DNA of 64,000 nt from the IMG/VR virus record IMGVR_UViG_3300029641_000003. One strand, given 5' to 3'. This document shows positions 6,668 to 10,941 of the stretch, in pieces (position 1 is the stretch's first letter; every line of letters starts with the position of its first letter). This stretch comes from a virus (Duplodnaviria; Heunggongvirae; Uroviricota; Caudoviricetes). Made by a program: the position numbers and the translations under genes. The notes beneath the pieces were generated by a model, which did no database searches, was not told where the DNA came from, and was given only the letters and a program-made list of their open reading frames with translations.

Positions 6668-7309
6668 ATGATTATATTGGTAGCCAGCCAAAAAGGTGGC
6701 TGTGGCAAATCAACCACCAGCGTAAACATTTGTGCGGAGCTTGCCCGCGCAAATAAGGACGTAGTTCTACTTGATGCAGATAAGCAAGGAACATCTGCCC
6801 GTTGGGCATCGGACCGTAATGCGGCAGAGGTTTCTCCAGTAATTCATTGCGTCCAGAAGTTTGGGAATATTCGTGAAACACTTCTTGATCTGGACAAGCG
6901 TTATGAATTTGTGGTTGTTGATACCGCTGGTCGTGATAGCAAAGAGATGCGCACCGGTATTACTGCGGCGGATGTTTTGCTTGTTCCATTCAGGCCATCT
7001 CAGCCAGATTTAGACACGCTGGCGCATTTTGTTGAAGTCTTTGAAGAGGCTTTGGATCTGATGCCTAATCCTAGCATTAAGGCGTGCGCAGTTTTAACAA
7101 TGGCCCCATCCAATCCGGTTGTGAATGAAGCCAATGAGGCCAAAGAGTACCTGGCTGAATATCCGCAACTGAAGTTGCTGAAAACCATCATTCGCGATCG
7201 CAAGGTTTACCGCGATTGTATGGCTGAAGGGAAGGGCGTTGTTGAGATGGACAACGGGAAAGCTAAAGGTGAAATCCAGATGTTGGTTAAGGAGTTATTA
7301 AGTGATTAA
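6668..7309 (+). CDS. parA: ParA/ParF-type small Walker ATPase (type Ib partition)
   Basis: 213 aa; deviant Walker A SQKGGCGKST at N-terminus, VVVDTAGR Walker B region. Confidence 0.85.
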   Translation: MIILVASQKGGCGKSTTSVNICAELARANKDVVLLDADKQGTSARWASDRNAAEVSPVIHCVQKFGNIRETLLDLDKRYEFVVVDTAGRDSKEMRTGITAADVLLVPFRPSQPDLDTLAHFVEVFEEALDLMPNPSIKACAVLTMAPSNPVVNEANEAKEYLAEYPQLKLLKTIIRDRKVYRDCMAEGKGVVEMDNGKAKGEIQMLVKELLSD

Positions 7310-7589
7310 GCCTCGTAAATCGGTAAAAGCCCCCGAAGTAAAAGACCTCGATCTTGAACGCCGAATTGAGGCTTTTGCCAGCAAAGCTGATTTGGTGCCG
7401 GGTGAGCAACCAGAAGACAACAAAGTGCTCGATAAGGACGCCCCACGTGATTTTAAATCCATTCGTGTTGGCTTCAATGAATACGAGTACCAGGTACTTG
7501 ATGCGTTAAGCAAAAAGCATAATCGCAGCAAATTGAATATGATCCGCCATGCTATCCTCATGCTTGCAGAGTCTGAGGATACAAAATGA
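7302..7589 (+). CDS. ParG-like ribbon-helix-helix centromere-binding protein
   Basis: 95-aa ORF with GTG start overlapping parA stop; C-terminal RHH-like segment IRVGFNEYEYQVLDALSKK...MIRHAILMLAE. Confidence 0.5.
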   Translation: MIKPRKSVKAPEVKDLDLERRIEAFASKADLVPGEQPEDNKVLDKDAPRDFKSIRVGFNEYEYQVLDALSKKHNRSKLNMIRHAILMLAESEDTK

Positions 7590-7594
7590 CGCTG

Positions 7595-7665
7595 GAATGA
7601 CACCGTTTTGGTTCCATGTGTTATTTTGAGGCTACTTTGATTCCTTTTTAGTACCAGAATGGTGT
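7595..7665. repeat. second copy of centromere-like repeats flanking parA-parG
   Basis: GGTTCCATGTGTTATTTTGAGGCT and TTTTAGTACCAGAATGGTGTTGTT match motifs at 6440-6660. Confidence 0.4.
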
Positions 7666-7700
7666 TGTTAGTGTACCGTAACGGTGCTTGTTTGATGTTA

Positions 7701-7724
7701 TAAAAGCCCCATATGGGGCTTTTC
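7701..7724. terminator. bidirectional intrinsic terminator between convergent par and methyltransferase operons
   Basis: AAAA-AGCCCC-ATAT-GGGGCT-TTTT palindrome flanked by A-run and T-run. Confidence 0.55.
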
Positions 7725-8759
7725 TTAATTAAGTGTGGCTATAATGTCGTTAGCTATCATTCGCGTTGATGCTTTACAGGATACAGAGCGACGGGATGGC
7801 ATAGGATACACCTTGAAGCCATTGCCAACGTAAAGTTCGCGAATGTTAGGCGCACCACTGTTTGTTATCACAATTTTCGCTCCGCGTCTGTGGGCATCCA
7901 CCAGCAGTGACACCAGCCGTTGTTGATCTTCAAACCTAAAGCTATGCCCTGAGTAATTTGTAAATCCGGTAGTGTCGGGCAATGGTTCATAGGGGGGATC
8001 GCAGAAAATCACATCATCATTCCCGGCAGCCTCAATTACACCAGCAAAATCGCCGGACACAAATTCCGAATACTTTGAAATATCGTCAGCCAGGAACGCC
8101 TCCATTTCCGCGAGAGGGAAGTGGGGTGATTTCTGCTTTCCATATCCGACGTTGAACTCTCCTTTACGGTTATAGCGAGTGACGCCATTAAAACAATGAC
8201 GATTGAGATACAGGAACGCCGCTGCATGGTGAAGGGAATCATAAGCACCATTGTTGAATGCATTGCGAACATTCAAAAATGCATCAGCAGAGTTGTAATC
8301 CTGAAAAAAACGATATGCCAGTGTGATAAGAGAATGCCCTTCACGCTGCAATGTCTGATAGAAGTTAATCAGGTCATTATTGATATCGTTCAGCAGGTTG
8401 CTTTTAAATCCGGCATTAGTGAAAACAGCGCCACCTCCAACGAAAGGTTCTATCAACCGTTTTCCGTGGGGCAGGTGTTCGAAGATAATGGGCAGTGCAG
8501 AAAATTTGCCGCCGACCCACTTAAAGACTGGGCGATCAAATTCGTCCTCCGAGCGAATACGTCGCATATGGCTGATAGTGGCTTCCGCCGCAGGACGATG
8601 ATTGTCGCTATAAGAAATAAATTTAGCACCAATATCAGCCACGGATTCCCTCCTTATTTGCTTCAAATACAGCTCTTGCAAAACCGTAAGGTGTCGCGCT
8701 ACGAAAATTCGCTCTTTCAGGCCCTGGCGGTGCCTTGTGTATTCGGTTATCTGGATCAC
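7725..8759 (-). CDS. Dam-like N6-adenine DNA methyltransferase (start uncertain, possibly ATG at 8567)
   Basis: KWVGGKF, FVGGGAV (SAM motif), NRHCFNGVTRYN, DPPY catalytic motif; recalled E. coli Dam similarity begins at about residue 75 of the ORF. Confidence 0.8.
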   Translation of the reverse strand: MIQITEYTRHRQGLKERIFVARHLTVLQELYLKQIRRESVADIGAKFISYSDNHRPAAEATISHMRRIRSEDEFDRPVFKWVGGKFSALPIIFEHLPHGKRLIEPFVGGGAVFTNAGFKSNLLNDINNDLINFYQTLQREGHSLITLAYRFFQDYNSADAFLNVRNAFNNGAYDSLHHAAAFLYLNRHCFNGVTRYNRKGEFNVGYGKQKSPHFPLAEMEAFLADDISKYSEFVSGDFAGVIEAAGNDDVIFCDPPYEPLPDTTGFTNYSGHSFRFEDQQRLVSLLVDAHRRGAKIVITNSGAPNIRELYVGNGFKVYPMPSRRSVSCKASTRMIANDIIATLN

Positions 8760-9441
8760 CTAACGACTTGTCGATTCGCGGAGTTGGCATGATGAATCCT
8801 TGCCCGCTCCACAGGCATGTTTTTTTGGTGTAATTGTCTTCCTTGCAATATGCAGTGAAGTGATAAGGATGGAATATGTGATCAGGTTTACGCCAGAATG
8901 TCGATATTTGGCTGACCGGGTTTTCAATCATGTACGGGCAACCAATCATCTTTGCAATGTCGTAACACTGCCAGACAACCTGCATTGCTTTGAACTGGAA
9001 AACCGGATCTTTTTTTGCTTTATCTGCGAACCAGCGTGCGCCAGATACAGCCAGGTCAGTACATGGAGGGAAACCGGCTAAAAATACAACTCTGTGCAAA
9101 TTTTTCCGAAGGAAATTGTAGACCTCATCACTGTCAATAATTGCGCTGATACGTGTGAGTACAGCACCTGACTCCATCAATTGGCTGCCGGACTCCTGGT
9201 GTTGCGGATCGACAATGACTGCATCAATGCCGTGTTCCAGCCAGGGGGAAACCATATTCCCTGTATAATCACAAAGACTCACCGCCAGCGGTCGGTTATT
9301 AATGCTCTGCTTCACCGCCAATGGCCTCCACCAGCGAGCTAAACATCGCGGATAATTCGCTTGTGAACAGAATGAAGTCAGCATCAAATCGCTGGGCAAC
9401 ATCTTCACGGTCGATGTCATCGTTCTGGTCATAGAGATCAT
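8635..9441 (-). CDS. divergent C5-cytosine methyltransferase-like protein
   Basis: Motif IV-like GFPPCTDLAVSG and motif VI-like ENP; motif I degenerate (LCDYTGNM); overlaps the Dam-like ORF by 125 nt and rdgC by 143 nt in other frames. Confidence 0.4.
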   Translation of the reverse strand: MISMTRTMTSTVKMLPSDLMLTSFCSQANYPRCLARWWRPLAVKQSINNRPLAVSLCDYTGNMVSPWLEHGIDAVIVDPQHQESGSQLMESGAVLTRISAIIDSDEVYNFLRKNLHRVVFLAGFPPCTDLAVSGARWFADKAKKDPVFQFKAMQVVWQCYDIAKMIGCPYMIENPVSQISTFWRKPDHIFHPYHFTAYCKEDNYTKKTCLWSGQGFIMPTPRIDKSLGDPDNRIHKAPPGPERANFRSATPYGFARAVFEANKEGIRG

Positions 9442-10213
9442 CGCAAAACGTCAGTGCTTTGATGCTCATGTCATCGTTTAACCTGAAGGTCGCGCGGTCC
9501 TGCCAGTTGATTGCAACCGTTGTTGCAACTTTTCCGGCTTCAATATGAGTCATTATTTCCTCTGACTGTAGGTCTACTTTCTTGCAACGAACTGCGCCGC
9601 CGTCATCGAACAGAGATTTCAATATGGCTTCTTCGCCTGCTTTAAAGCCTTGAGGAAATGTTGACTTGAACCATTCGGTCATAGTCATTTCGAGCGGTTC
9701 TATCGGCGTGAATGGAATCACTGGCAGGCTGCCAAGTGATTTACGTAAGAGCGCCAGCATTTCTTCTGCTTTTCTGGCGCTGGAAGCTTCTACGAAGACC
9801 AGATAGTTGTCGCGATCAATAAGGATTCGCGACAATGATTTGCGAGTGAATGCGCGAGGCAACAAAGAGTGGAGAACTTCATCCTTCAGGGTGTTTTTTT
9901 CCGACTTCTTCAGCTTACGAGATTGCTCATTTTCGAGCTTTTCCACTTTTTTCTGCACTTCCTCCTTAATGACATGAGAGGGCAGGAGCTTAATTTCTCG
10001 CTGTTGCTGGAGAAGTAGAAAACCGTGGTATTCATGGATCAGGTTGTCAGCCAGCACCGGCACCCATCCGACTTTTGCCATTTCTTGTGATGCGCATGGA
10101 GTGAATGTGAATTGGCTTAAGGCATCACTAACGGTGGTTGAGTCCAGTTTTATTTCGCGGGCAAGGCGATAGACGTATATGTTTTTAAAGGCGACTAATC
10201 TCATGTTTCGCAA
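9299..10213 (-). CDS. rdgC: RdgC recombination-associated protein (ATG probably at 10204)
   Basis: FTPC, KDEVLHSLLPRAF, ALLRKSLGSLPV, DIDREDVAQRFDADFIL, GGEA match recalled E. coli RdgC along the full length. Confidence 0.85.
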   Translation of the reverse strand: MRNMRLVAFKNIYVYRLAREIKLDSTTVSDALSQFTFTPCASQEMAKVGWVPVLADNLIHEYHGFLLLQQQREIKLLPSHVIKEEVQKKVEKLENEQSRKLKKSEKNTLKDEVLHSLLPRAFTRKSLSRILIDRDNYLVFVEASSARKAEEMLALLRKSLGSLPVIPFTPIEPLEMTMTEWFKSTFPQGFKAGEEAILKSLFDDGGAVRCKKVDLQSEEIMTHIEAGKVATTVAINWQDRATFRLNDDMSIKALTFCDDLYDQNDDIDREDVAQRFDADFILFTSELSAMFSSLVEAIGGEAEH

Positions 10214-10216
10214 AAT

Positions 10217-10250
10217 TGTGTTAGAAAATAAAACTCAATTATCTAACACA
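10217..10250. promoter_or_regulatory. operator: inverted pair TGTGTTAGA(N16)TCTAACACA
   Basis: 9-bp perfect inverted repeat of the dispersed TGTGTTAGAAAAT motif, just upstream of the rdgC start. Confidence 0.5.
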
Positions 10251-10263
10251 GTTTTGCATTTTG

Positions 10264-10941
10264 CTATCCCTTCACAAAGGAGAAATTGCTCGCTGTTGCT
10301 TTTAGCGCGCCACCAGCTTTCAGGGCTATATCACCATCAGCGGCGACGGTTACATTGCTGCCTTTTACATTAACGTCTCCATCTGAGGATACATTGGTTT
10401 TGCTGCTTGATTTGACGTTAACCTCACCTCCAGCATTAAGCACTATATTCGCCGGGCCGATTATGTAAATCTGGCCGGATTCGTTCATCCCTATCCTTGA
10501 TCCTGCGGCGGTGTTTGCTATTTCATAGCCACCGCCAGCCGTTCTGACCTCAAGGATATTGTTTCGGTGAATAACAAAATCTTCAGTCGCCGAAAACTGG
10601 GGGCGGGCAGGAGCACCATCAACTTCTTCTGGTGACCATCCACTTCCTTGTCCGGAGGCTTCCGGAGGCACATTTGGTACGCCTCCTGGGGCATCCTGCG
10701 CCGCGCCAACGATTAAAGGTCGGCGCGTGTCTATCCTGCCTTTAGCATCCAGATAAGGAAATTCGACCCAGACTAAATCGCCGCTGACTGTAGGTGTAAA
10801 GGCGTTACCGATAGGCATTTGATACTCTGCCCATGGGAGGTCTTCATCCGGTACACCGTTCCAGTCAGGCAGTATGCGGACCTGCGCTCGCATAAGTCCG
10901 GCAGGGTGTTTGGTCCCTACGATTTGCGCTCTGCGTTTCAC
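10264..10941 (-). CDS. baseplate central spike protein (gpV/gp5-like)
   Basis: 225 aa; N-terminal OB-like region then Gly-rich beta-helix-like repeats (NVKSSSKTNVSSDGDVNVKGSNVTVAADGDIALKAGG); first gene of a 4-gene overlapping cluster. Confidence 0.5.
   Translation of the reverse strand: MKRRAQIVGTKHPAGLMRAQVRILPDWNGVPDEDLPWAEYQMPIGNAFTPTVSGDLVWVEFPYLDAKGRIDTRRPLIVGAAQDAPGGVPNVPPEASGQGSGWSPEEVDGAPARPQFSATEDFVIHRNNILEVRTAGGGYEIANTAAGSRIGMNESGQIYIIGPANIVLNAGGEVNVKSSSKTNVSSDGDVNVKGSNVTVAADGDIALKAGGALKATASNFSFVKG

What the first reader, a model, noticed from the sequence alone, without database searches (positions are those of the whole stretch)
7725..9441. Dam-like and C5-like methyltransferase ORFs overlap in different frames
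A divergent C5-methyltransferase-like ORF (PPC motif IV and ENP motif VI, degenerate motif I) overlaps the downstream Dam-like ORF by 125 nt and the upstream rdgC by 143 nt. P1 encodes a single bifunctional Dmt as I recall. This may be a fusion gene split by a frameshift, a programmed frameshift, or two genes with misassigned starts.
Basis: seen in the sequence. Interest (0 to 1): 0.45.

Follow-up and report, generated by a model that had tools for sequence, protein, structure and literature searches.

The report
Three ordinary coupled genes: rdgC, small dcm-like, dam
The long overlaps come from extending each reading frame to its furthest possible start; the region really holds three separate, tightly packed genes of a D6-like plasmid prophage (RdgC, a small phage-type cytosine methylase, and a Dam adenine methylase), which is an ordinary arrangement.

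Summary
The two maximal ORFs (7725-8759 and 8635-9441, minus strand) and the PPC and ENP motifs are real. The 125-nt and 143-nt overlaps are longest-ORF artefacts.

The window is a D6-like P1-type plasmid prophage of E. coli. The best-supported gene models are:
- rdgC, 10204-9299
- a 226-aa small Dcm-like gene, 9315-8635 (GTG start, GGAGG 9 nt upstream, 17-nt overlap with rdgC)
- dam, 8642-7725 (GTG start, AAGGAGG 6 nt upstream, 8-nt GTGGCTGA overlap)

Phage D6 has the same junctions. Substitutions between the window and D6 follow the wobble pattern of rdgC and of the small gene across the supposed overlaps, so the extensions are not coding.

This is not a split P1 Dmt. The Dmt N-domain is a canonical PF00145 methylase with no detectable sequence similarity to the small protein. 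The small protein belongs to a large stand-alone family of about 220 aa (PHROG 757, more than 7,600 homologs). That family has a C5-methyltransferase fold and includes the Drexlerviridae Dcm shown to make 5mC and to trigger retron Ec86.

The RefSeq start (ATG 9255) removes 20 conserved residues.

Verdict: ordinary, low interest.

The parts
9299..10204 (-). rdgC (the P1 hrdC homolog), first gene of the module. The ATG 10204 start is the RefSeq one; the maximal ORF starts at TTG 10213.
   Evidence: PF04381 RdgC 1.2e-100. RefSeq annotation of a 99.7%-identical plasmid. D6 orf65.
9325..9329 (-). GGAGG Shine-Dalgarno sequence, 9 nt upstream of GTG 9315, lying inside the 3' end of rdgC.
   Evidence: Read directly in the sequence. 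The same GGAGGCCATTGGCGGTG context is present in D6.
8635..9315 (-). Small Dcm-like DNA cytosine-C5 methyltransferase gene, 226 aa, GTG start, 17-nt overlap with rdgC. Motif I is LCDYTGNM (aa 14-21; Met21 is the ATG at 9255). Other landmarks: FPPC85 (codon 9063-9061), E131NP (8925-8917), K164K165 (8826-8821).
8649..8655 (-). AAGGAGG Shine-Dalgarno sequence, 6 nt upstream of the dam GTG, inside the last codons of the dcm-like gene.
   Evidence: Read directly in the sequence.
7725..8642 (-). dam, a D12-class N6-adenine DNA methyltransferase of 305 aa. GTG start, 8-nt start/stop overlap (GTGGCTGA). Carries the FVGGGAV and DPPY motifs.
   Evidence: PF02086 and TIGR00571 above their cut-offs. RefSeq and D6 place the start at the same position. 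69% identity to P1 Dmt aa 471-753 and 80% to D6 Dam, with conserved residues upstream of Met26, which is ATG 8567.
7702..7723 (.). Perfect hairpin AAAAGCCCC-ATAT-GGGGCTTTT directly after the dam stop codon. Probably a bidirectional intrinsic terminator between the dam operon and the convergent parA-like operon.
   Evidence: Read directly in the sequence. The consensus scan did not flag it, because the T-run is part of the stem.
8820..8826 (-). A7 homopolymer run covering the Lys164-Lys165 codons of the dcm-like gene. It is the site of a frameshift in truncated relatives.
   Evidence: Sequence. P0009, a 179-aa D6-type variant that switches frame exactly after TKK (10 member sequences, 4 contigs).

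Best explanation
The region is a three-gene operon, rdgC, dcm-like and dam, of a D6-like P1-type plasmid prophage. It is read from the minus strand and ends at a hairpin terminator.

Each downstream gene has its own Shine-Dalgarno sequence buried in the end of the gene before it. Each starts at a GTG that overlaps the preceding gene by only 17 nt or 8 nt. This is the usual geometry of translational coupling. The 143-nt and 125-nt overlaps arise only if each frame is extended to the first start codon after the previous stop.

The middle gene encodes a 226-aa stand-alone cytosine-C5 DNA methyltransferase of the small phage 'Dcm-like' family. By inference it uses AdoMet, with Cys85 (PPC) as the nucleophile and Glu131 (ENP) as the proton donor, to make 5-methylcytosine. 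The last gene encodes a Dam that by inference makes m6A at GATC.

Together the two enzymes probably pre-methylate phage or plasmid DNA against host restriction, and possibly serve P1-type packaging. That is the job done in P1 by the single fused Dmt protein, whose cytosine-methylase half belongs to a different sequence family.

What is shown here: gene boundaries, family membership, fold, and conservation of the catalytic residues. What is inferred: enzymatic activity, target sequences and biological role.
For: Element identity:
- 74% nt identity to phage D6 and 99.7% to E. coli plasmid NZ_LR890273.

Gene starts:
- GGAGG lies 9 nt before GTG 9315 and AAGGAGG lies 6 nt before GTG 8642.
- The D6 annotation has identical 17-nt and 8-nt overlaps even though the junction sequence differs (ATGAGTAA).
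- RefSeq also starts dam at 8642.
- All 30 aligned homologs start 6-10 residues before the invariant LCDxTG.
- Distant phage homologs align from query residues 9-20 of a query that began 7 codons upstream of GTG 9315. That is 8-19 residues upstream of Met21.

The extensions are not coding:
- Codon-phase substitution counts.
- The D6 extension frame closes earlier and its translation diverges.
- Open runs of this length are common in +1 frames.

Separate genes are the norm:
- More than 7,600 homologs of about 215-255 aa with no Pfam domain.
- A P1-like relative, L011, has rdgC, then a 150-nt gap, then dcm-like, then dam with a 19-nt overlap.
- In Agrobacterium and Pseudomonas the homolog sits as a stand-alone gene among phage-type early genes; the Pseudomonas one is next to another MTase.

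Function:
- PHROG 757 'DNA methyltransferase' at 3.5e-78.
- The only hhalign local match to the Dmt-N family is motif IV onto motif IV.
- The protein is 38% identical (E=2e-42) to KarlJaspers Bas06 Dcm. Its residues C82, E128, K175 and K176 align with C85, E131, K164 and K165 here.
- The K42 strain's Dcm raised 5mC in retron Ec86 msDNA, measured by LC-MS. The quadruple mutant of those four residues did not (bioRxiv 10.1101/2023.08.16.553469; published as Cell Rep 2024;43:114857, cited in PMC12916289).
- Dam.
Against: - Motif I in the D6 clade is C-D-x-T-G, not F-x-G-x-G as in KarlJaspers (LFDGSG). AdoMet binding is not guaranteed.
- The region that would act as target-recognition domain is only about 35 residues and differs from the K42 enzyme, so the target sequence is unknown.
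- RefSeq annotators chose ATG 9255.
- The first 20 residues of Dam are poorly conserved between the window and D6, so 8642 versus 8567 is not settled by conservation alone.
- No methylation data exist for this element.
Confidence: 0.88

Rival explanations
1. The two ORFs are the halves of a P1-Dmt-like bifunctional gene split by a frameshift mutation or sequencing error, or rejoined by programmed ribosomal frameshifting.
For: P1 has a fused C5-plus-Dam protein at the same position, directly after hrdC/rdgC. The Dam frame is open for 39 codons upstream of its start in both the window and D6.
Against: - The small protein is not homologous in sequence to the Dmt N-domain.
- It is full length relative to thousands of stand-alone homologs and ends at the family's normal C-terminus.
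- The arrangement is the same in D6 at 74% nt identity, and in L011 at 62% and 45% protein identity.
- The Dam frame is +1 relative to the upstream gene, and there is no X_XXY_YYZ site.
- Substitutions hit position 2 of the extension frame: 24 of 34.
- Dam has its own strong SD and start.
Confidence: 0.02
2. The RefSeq model is right: the middle gene starts at ATG 9255 (206 aa), does not overlap rdgC, and is a 'hypothetical protein'.
For: PGAP annotation of two near-identical plasmids. ATG is the commonest start codon. A JGI gene call for a 77%-identical homolog also starts at this Met (P0005).
Against: - Met21 is an invariant internal residue of the family.
- C15, D16 and G19, upstream of it, are also invariant. 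Residues 10-14 form the first strand of the Rossmann core, and residues 11-20 have a mean pLDDT of 92.
- Homologs as distant as Vibrio and Drexlerviridae phages align upstream of it.
- No purine-rich SD precedes 9255 (tacagggaatATG), whereas GGAGG precedes 9315.
Confidence: 0.06
3. The small protein has the C5-MTase fold but is not a plain 5mC methyltransferase in this clade. It could transfer another group, act on another substrate, or be an inactive DNA-binding or regulatory partner of Dam.
For: Motif I is non-canonical (C-D-x-T-G) and clade-specific invariant residues are absent from the K42 enzyme (DPQH, WQC, PD(D/N)RIH). The second-best structural match is a C5-carboxymethyltransferase. 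A mini-TRD is present. The gene is recurrently adjacent to a second methyltransferase.
Against: The catalytic Cys, Glu and Lys-Lys are invariant across the clade and align with the residues needed for activity in K42 Dcm. Strong purifying selection acts over the whole protein (27/11/90 substitutions by codon position). The carboxymethyltransferase match is no better than those to ordinary C5 MTases.
Confidence: 0.1

Closest known systems
Phage D6 orf65-orf64-orf63 (MF356679: RdgC-family protein, 'putative DNA-cytosine methylase', 'site-specific DNA-adenine methylase')
   Same: Same three genes in the same order and strand, with the same 17-nt and 8-nt overlaps. Identity is 84% (small protein, tblastn over 228 aa) and 80% (Dam) at the protein level, and 74% at the nucleotide level.
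   Different: D6 carries a glutaminyl-tRNA synthetase gene between the parA-like operon and dam; this window does not. The first roughly 20 Dam residues and the last 5 residues of the small protein differ.
Drexlerviridae 'Dcm-like C5 cytosine methyltransferase' (KarlJaspers Bas06 bas06_0055 / phage K42 Dcm), the trigger of retron Ec86
   Same: Same family: 38% identity, E=2e-42, full length. It is a stand-alone protein of about 230 aa. The FPPC, IENP, KKTCLW and RSxTPxGFARAVFEAN blocks are conserved, and C82/E128/K175/K176 correspond to C85/E131/K164/K165. It is the experimentally supported 5mC-forming member.
   Different: Motif I is canonical there (LFDGSG) and is LCDYTGN here. A 14-aa insertion lies before KK, and the segment between KKTCLW and RSxTP is different, so specificity (CCWGG was inferred for K42) cannot be transferred. 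The genomic context also differs: there it is a lytic siphovirus early region and the gene is not next to dam.
P1 Dmt (bifunctional C5-cytosine / N6-adenine methyltransferase, 754 aa)
   Same: Same locus, directly downstream of hrdC/rdgC. The Dam part is 69% identical. The presumed overall function is the same, cytosine plus adenine methylation.
   Different: P1 has one polypeptide. Its N-domain of about 470 aa is a canonical PF00145 enzyme with a large TRD and has no detectable sequence similarity to the 226-aa protein here. The cytosine-methylase module was replaced by a different family, not split.
Canonical C5 DNA methyltransferases (Pfam PF00145: M.HhaI, M.HaeIII, DNMT3 catalytic domain)
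   Different: No HMM-level similarity. The protein is about 100 residues shorter than the smallest classical bacterial enzymes listed (327-388 aa) and has no recognisable large TRD. DNMT3, which also has a small TRD, is the best structural match.

Membership tests
Small phage Dcm-like C5-methyltransferase family (PHROG 757; K42/Bas06 Dcm) | Full-length significant sequence similarity to family members | tested here: met
   PHROG 757 at 3.5e-78, covering aa 3-223. E=2e-42 to KarlJaspers Dcm. 7,688 homologs with E<=1e-3.
Small phage Dcm-like C5-methyltransferase family (PHROG 757; K42/Bas06 Dcm) | Catalytic and substrate-binding residues (Cys of PPC, Glu of ENP, Lys-Lys) that were mutated together in the inactive K42 Dcm | tested here: met
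   C85, E131 and K164-K165 align with C82, E128 and K175-K176. C85 and E131 are invariant in 30 homologs; K164 is invariant and K165 at least 90% conserved.
Small phage Dcm-like C5-methyltransferase family (PHROG 757; K42/Bas06 Dcm) | Stand-alone protein of about 215-255 aa | tested here: met
   226 aa from GTG 9315. Most homolog lengths fall between 201 and 267 aa.
Small phage Dcm-like C5-methyltransferase family (PHROG 757; K42/Bas06 Dcm) | Forms 5-methylcytosine in DNA | not testable with these tools
   Shown only for the 38%-identical K42 enzyme, by LC-MS.
Canonical C5 DNA methyltransferases (Pfam PF00145) | Match to the family HMM or profile | tested here: not met
   No Pfam hit even at E<=10. 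No hit in the PDB profile search. hhalign probability of 0.1% against the Dmt-N alignment.
Canonical C5 DNA methyltransferases (Pfam PF00145) | C5-MTase catalytic-domain fold | tested here: met
Canonical C5 DNA methyltransferases (Pfam PF00145) | Motif I F-x-G-x-G (AdoMet loop) | tested here: inconclusive
   The sequence here is L-C-D-Y-T-G-N. It is invariant as LCDxTG in the D6 clade, whereas KarlJaspers has LFDGSG. It is a conserved variant, not decay, but cofactor binding is untested.
Canonical C5 DNA methyltransferases (Pfam PF00145) | Motif IV P-C and motif VI E-N-V | tested here: met
   FPPC85T and E131-N-P-V are invariant. hhalign aligns FLAGFPPCTDLAVSGAR with LVGGTPCQAFSIAGLR.
Canonical C5 DNA methyltransferases (Pfam PF00145) | Large target-recognition domain between motifs VIII and IX | tested here: not met
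   Only about 35 residues separate KKTCLW (aa 164-169) from RSATP (aa 205-209). This is also where homologs carry insertions, for example 28 aa in P0006 and P0008.
Dam family (D12-class N6-adenine DNA methyltransferase, PF02086 / TIGR00571) | HMM match above the curated cut-offs, with FxGxG and DPPY motifs | tested here: met
   PF02086 at 182 bits (cut-off 22) and TIGR00571 at 231.6 bits (cut-off 114.85). FVGGGAV and CDPPYEP are present in the translation.
Dam family (D12-class N6-adenine DNA methyltransferase, PF02086 / TIGR00571) | GATC specificity | not testable with these tools
   Inferred from 69% identity to the Dam half of P1 Dmt, which is annotated as methylating GATC.
P1 Dmt-type bifunctional fusion | Both methyltransferase domains in one reading frame, with a PF00145 N-domain | tested here: not met
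   There are two frames (+1 offset), each with its own SD and start. The N-domain is not homologous.
Programmed ribosomal frameshift site | Slippery heptamer, correct frame geometry, and conservation of the trans-frame | tested here: not met
   No X_XXY_YYZ heptamer in either overlap, and the downstream frame is +1. The trans-frame is not conserved. No Rfam element is present.

The most novel reading that the evidence does not exclude
The D6-clade enzyme, with its conserved C-D-x-T-G motif I and its own invariant mini-TRD (PD(D/N)RIH), may differ from the K42 Dcm in target sequence or in chemistry. Alternatively it may work only as a non-covalent complex with the co-translated Dam, as a 'split' functional analogue of P1 Dmt built from an unrelated cytosine-methylase family. 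As a relative of the retron Ec86 trigger, it could also limit which E. coli strains can carry D6-like plasmid prophages. Recurrent frameshifts in the A7 run could then be escape mutations.
Probability: 0.12. Interest if true: 0.4.

Novelty: new member of a known kind. Interest (0 to 1): 0.12.

Why it matters
The scientific weight is small. The result removes a false lead: there is no frameshift, no split gene and no long dual-coding region.

It has three practical consequences:
1. RefSeq models of this gene in D6-like plasmids (206 aa, labelled 'hypothetical protein') are probably truncated by 20 conserved residues and lack a functional name.
2. A very large phage and prophage family of minimal C5-methyltransferases has no Pfam or NCBIfam model, so it is routinely missed.
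3. P1 and D6-like phages fill the same genomic slot with cytosine methylases from unrelated sequence families. This suggests selection for carrying cytosine plus adenine methylation together.

Tried and rejected
- Sequence searches of the small protein against Pfam, NCBIfam and PDB, both single-sequence and with a 30-sequence profile, gave nothing.
- A profile-profile comparison with a 4-sequence alignment of P1 Dmt N-domain relatives gave probability 0.1%. Both alignments have low diversity (Neff about 2), so this is weak negative evidence for superfamily membership but adequate evidence against a recent split of Dmt.
- The promoter scan found no sigma-70-like site in 7500-10400, so the operon's promoter was not located. 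The terminator scan missed the obvious hairpin at 7702-7723.
- A literature search for the D6 genome paper did not find it in the held library. The DruSM1 preprint turned out to concern Gam, not Dcm.
- The 305-aa protein P0001, which looks like an RdgC-Dcm fusion, was examined. It is a single metagenomic contig with a one-base deletion (TT to T after ...FTSE) and is not evidence for frameshifting.
- The antisense 198-aa ORF at 8196-8792 (+) was considered and set aside. By frame arithmetic its first codon position coincides with the dam wobble position, where 167 of 237 window-versus-D6 substitutions fall.
Full report
**What is in the sequence**

On the minus strand, the ORF listing gives three maximal ORFs:
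- 10213..9299, 304 aa
- 9441..8635, 268 aa
- 8759..7725, 344 aa

Pfam identifies the first as RdgC (1.2e-100) and the third as a D12-class Dam (2.2e-53). The middle ORF has no Pfam hit.

**What element this is**

The 2.7-kb region is 74% identical to Escherichia phage D6. It is 99.7% identical to a 92.8-kb non-mobilizable E. coli plasmid, and 113 plasmid records match in all. The window is therefore a D6-like, P1-type plasmid prophage.

In D6 the same three genes are annotated as follows:
- orf65, an RdgC-family protein
- orf64, a 'putative DNA-cytosine methylase' of 226 aa
- orf63, a 'site-specific DNA-adenine methylase, similar to C-term half of P1 dmt only', 301 aa

The D6 overlaps are 17 nt and 8 nt.

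**Real gene boundaries**

*dam.* GTG 8642 is preceded by AAGGAGG at a spacing of 6 nt. It overlaps the upstream stop codon as GTGGCTGA. RefSeq uses this start in two near-identical plasmids. D6 has its ATG at the equivalent position, again with an 8-nt overlap but a different sequence, ATGAGTAA. Residues just upstream of Met26 (the ATG at 8567) are conserved with D6: ATISHM against AEISYM. The alignment to P1 Dmt also starts upstream of that Met, at residue 20 of the 305-aa protein.

*The middle gene.* GTG 9315 is preceded by GGAGG at a spacing of 9 nt. It corresponds exactly to the D6 start. RefSeq instead starts at ATG 9255. That Met is residue 21 and is invariant in an alignment of 30 homologs. 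The residues upstream of it, C15, D16 and G19, are also invariant, and every homolog starts 6-10 residues before the LCD motif. Distant phage homologs align upstream of Met21 as well. In the AlphaFold model, residues 10-14 form the first beta-strand of the core, and residues 11-20 have a mean pLDDT of 92. The RefSeq protein of 206 aa is therefore most likely truncated at the N-terminus.

**Are the long extensions coding?**

They are not.

| Region | Substitutions vs D6 by codon position, upstream gene's frame | Same substitutions in the extended ORF's frame |
|---|---|---|
| 9316-9441 | 4/1/14 (rdgC) | 1/14/4 |
| 8643-8759 | 6/4/24 (middle gene) | 4/24/6 (Dam) |

In each region the wobble pattern belongs to the upstream gene only.

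Further points:
- The D6 extension of the middle frame closes after 27 codons, against 45 here.
- The translated Dam-frame extensions of the two phages diverge.
- Stop-free runs of at least 39 or at least 45 codons occur at 17.8% and 13.5% of +1 off-frame positions inside long ORFs of this window. The extensions are what chance gives.
- Each downstream gene is in the +1 frame of its predecessor, and no X_XXY_YYZ heptamer lies in either overlap.
- No Rfam element is present.

**Not a split Dmt**

P1 Dmt (754 aa) lies directly after hrdC. It consists of a PF00145 C5-methyltransferase part (1.6e-35) followed by a Dam domain at residues 493-725. The window's Dam is 69% identical to Dmt residues 471-753.

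The middle protein has no similarity to the Dmt N-domain: BLASTP gives E=4, and hhalign of the two family alignments gives probability 0.1%. The single local match hhalign reports does put FLAGFPPCTDLAVSGAR onto LVGG-TPCQAFSIAGLR, that is, motif IV onto motif IV.

A more distant P1-like relative (85-kb contig, L011) also has three separate genes. Its RdgC is followed by a 150-nt gap, then a 254-aa homolog (62% identity), then a 270-aa Dam with a 19-nt overlap. The junction geometry drifts, but the genes stay separate.

**What the middle protein is**

It matches PHROG 757 'DNA methyltransferase' at 3.5e-78. It has 7,688 homologs at E<=1e-3 in the large protein collection. The 120 best homologs listed are mostly 201-267 aa, and none carries a precomputed Pfam domain apart from the chimeric P0001. 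Homologs occur in 1,588 phage records, mostly phages of Escherichia and Klebsiella, with others from Salmonella, Flavobacterium, Campylobacter and Vibrio.

- DNMT3A, DNMT1, M.HhaI, M.HaeIII and M.MpeI

**Experimental anchor**

A preprint on retron Ec86 (10.1101/2023.08.16.553469; published as Wang et al., Cell Rep 2024;43:114857, cited in PMC12916289) isolated escaper mutants of phage K42, a strain of KarlJaspers/Bas06. All escapers carried mutations in or just upstream of a 711-bp dcm gene, or deleted it. Expressing this Dcm raised 5mC in msDNA as measured by LC-MS. A C82A/E128A/K175A/K176A mutant did not. Changing the CCTGG motif in the msDNA abolished defence.

The 711-bp KarlJaspers gene bas06_0055 ('Dcm-like C5 cytosine methyltransferase') was fetched and translated. 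Its C82, E128, K175 and K176 are at exactly those positions. They align with C85, E131, K164 and K165 of the window protein, at 38% identity and E=2e-42. The window gene is therefore a member of an experimentally supported family of minimal phage C5-methyltransferases.

The two enzymes differ in three ways:
- Motif I is LCDYTGN here and LFDGSG in KarlJaspers.
- KarlJaspers has a 14-residue insertion before the Lys-Lys.
- The segment between KKTCLW and RSxTP differs. This is the only candidate for a target-recognition element, so target specificity cannot be transferred.

**Mechanism proposed**

*Shown:* three co-oriented genes with SD-plus-start signals embedded in the preceding gene, and a perfect hairpin, AAAAGCCCC-ATAT-GGGGCTTTT, at 7702-7723 right after the dam stop.

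*Inferred:*
- The genes are co-transcribed and translationally coupled.
- The 226-aa enzyme makes 5mC through Cys85 and Glu131.
- Dam makes m6A at GATC.
- Together they protect phage or plasmid DNA from restriction, as the fused Dmt is thought to do in P1.

The same slot is filled by a canonical PF00145 domain in P1 and by the small family in D6-like elements. Homologs elsewhere are again next to a second methyltransferase, for example PF01555 in a Pseudomonas contig, or sit among early-region genes such as RdgC, a recombination-dependent nuclease and a DnaC/IstB-like ATPase in Agrobacterium. This fits a modular anti-restriction role.

**Verdict**

The middle gene is a new, uncharacterised member of a known family. 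Interest is low.

Noticed in passing
window 9255-9315 (-): RefSeq/PGAP models of this gene in near-identical plasmids (WP_068981782.1, WP_064732924.1; 206 aa, 'hypothetical protein') start at the family-invariant Met21. They omit 20 conserved residues, including the first beta-strand and the invariant C15, D16 and G19. A JGI call for a 77%-identical homolog (P0005) makes the same choice.
   Followed up: yes
window 8820-8826 (-), the A7 run at Lys164-Lys165: A D6-type variant, P0009 (179 aa; 10 member sequences on 4 contigs up to 87 kb), switches frame exactly after TKK. This is an indel in the A7 run that truncates the enzyme at its Lys-Lys site. It could be recurrent inactivation (toxicity, or escape from a retron-type sensor) or a homopolymer sequencing error.
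   Followed up: partly
protein P0001 (ENA contig, 1053 bp), corresponding to about window 9360-9370: A 305-aa 'RdgC-Dcm fusion' protein in the database results from a single-base deletion (TT to T after ...DADFILFTSE) in one metagenomic contig. It has one member and one contig, so it is most likely an assembly or sequencing error.
   Followed up: yes
window 7590-7724, compared with L001 (D6) 1315-2976: D6 carries a glutaminyl-tRNA synthetase gene (orf62) between the parA-like operon and dam. This window has only a 135-bp intergenic region with the hairpin there, so the GlnRS gene is absent from this lineage.
   Followed up: partly
window 6668-7589 (+): A ParA-like AAA ATPase (213 aa) and an overlapping 95-aa ORF (the D6 orf60/orf61 homologs) run convergently towards dam. 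The hairpin at 7702-7723 could terminate both transcription units.
   Followed up: no
L011 4001-4765 and proteins P0006, P0008: A subclade of the small methyltransferase in another P1-like element carries a 28-residue insertion exactly in the short segment between KKTCLW and RSxTP. This fits that segment being a variable mini target-recognition element.
   Followed up: no
L008 / NC_019518.1 9921-11902 (Vibrio phage vB_VchM-138): A canonical C5 methyltransferase (gp12, 42% identical to the P1 Dmt N-domain) is followed, with a 4-nt overlap, by a second 'DNA methyltransferase' (gp13). This may be an unfused version of the Dmt arrangement. gp13 was not examined.
   Followed up: no
L010 2576-4678 (Pseudomonas abietaniphila contig): The 58%-identical homolog lies 289 nt downstream of a PF01555 N6/N4 methyltransferase gene. 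Pairing of the small C5-type enzyme with a second DNA methyltransferase recurs outside P1-like elements.
   Followed up: no
window 8196-8792 (+): A 198-aa ORF lies antisense to dam and the dcm-like gene. Its first codon position coincides with the dam wobble position, where most window-versus-D6 substitutions fall, so it is almost certainly not coding.
   Followed up: partly
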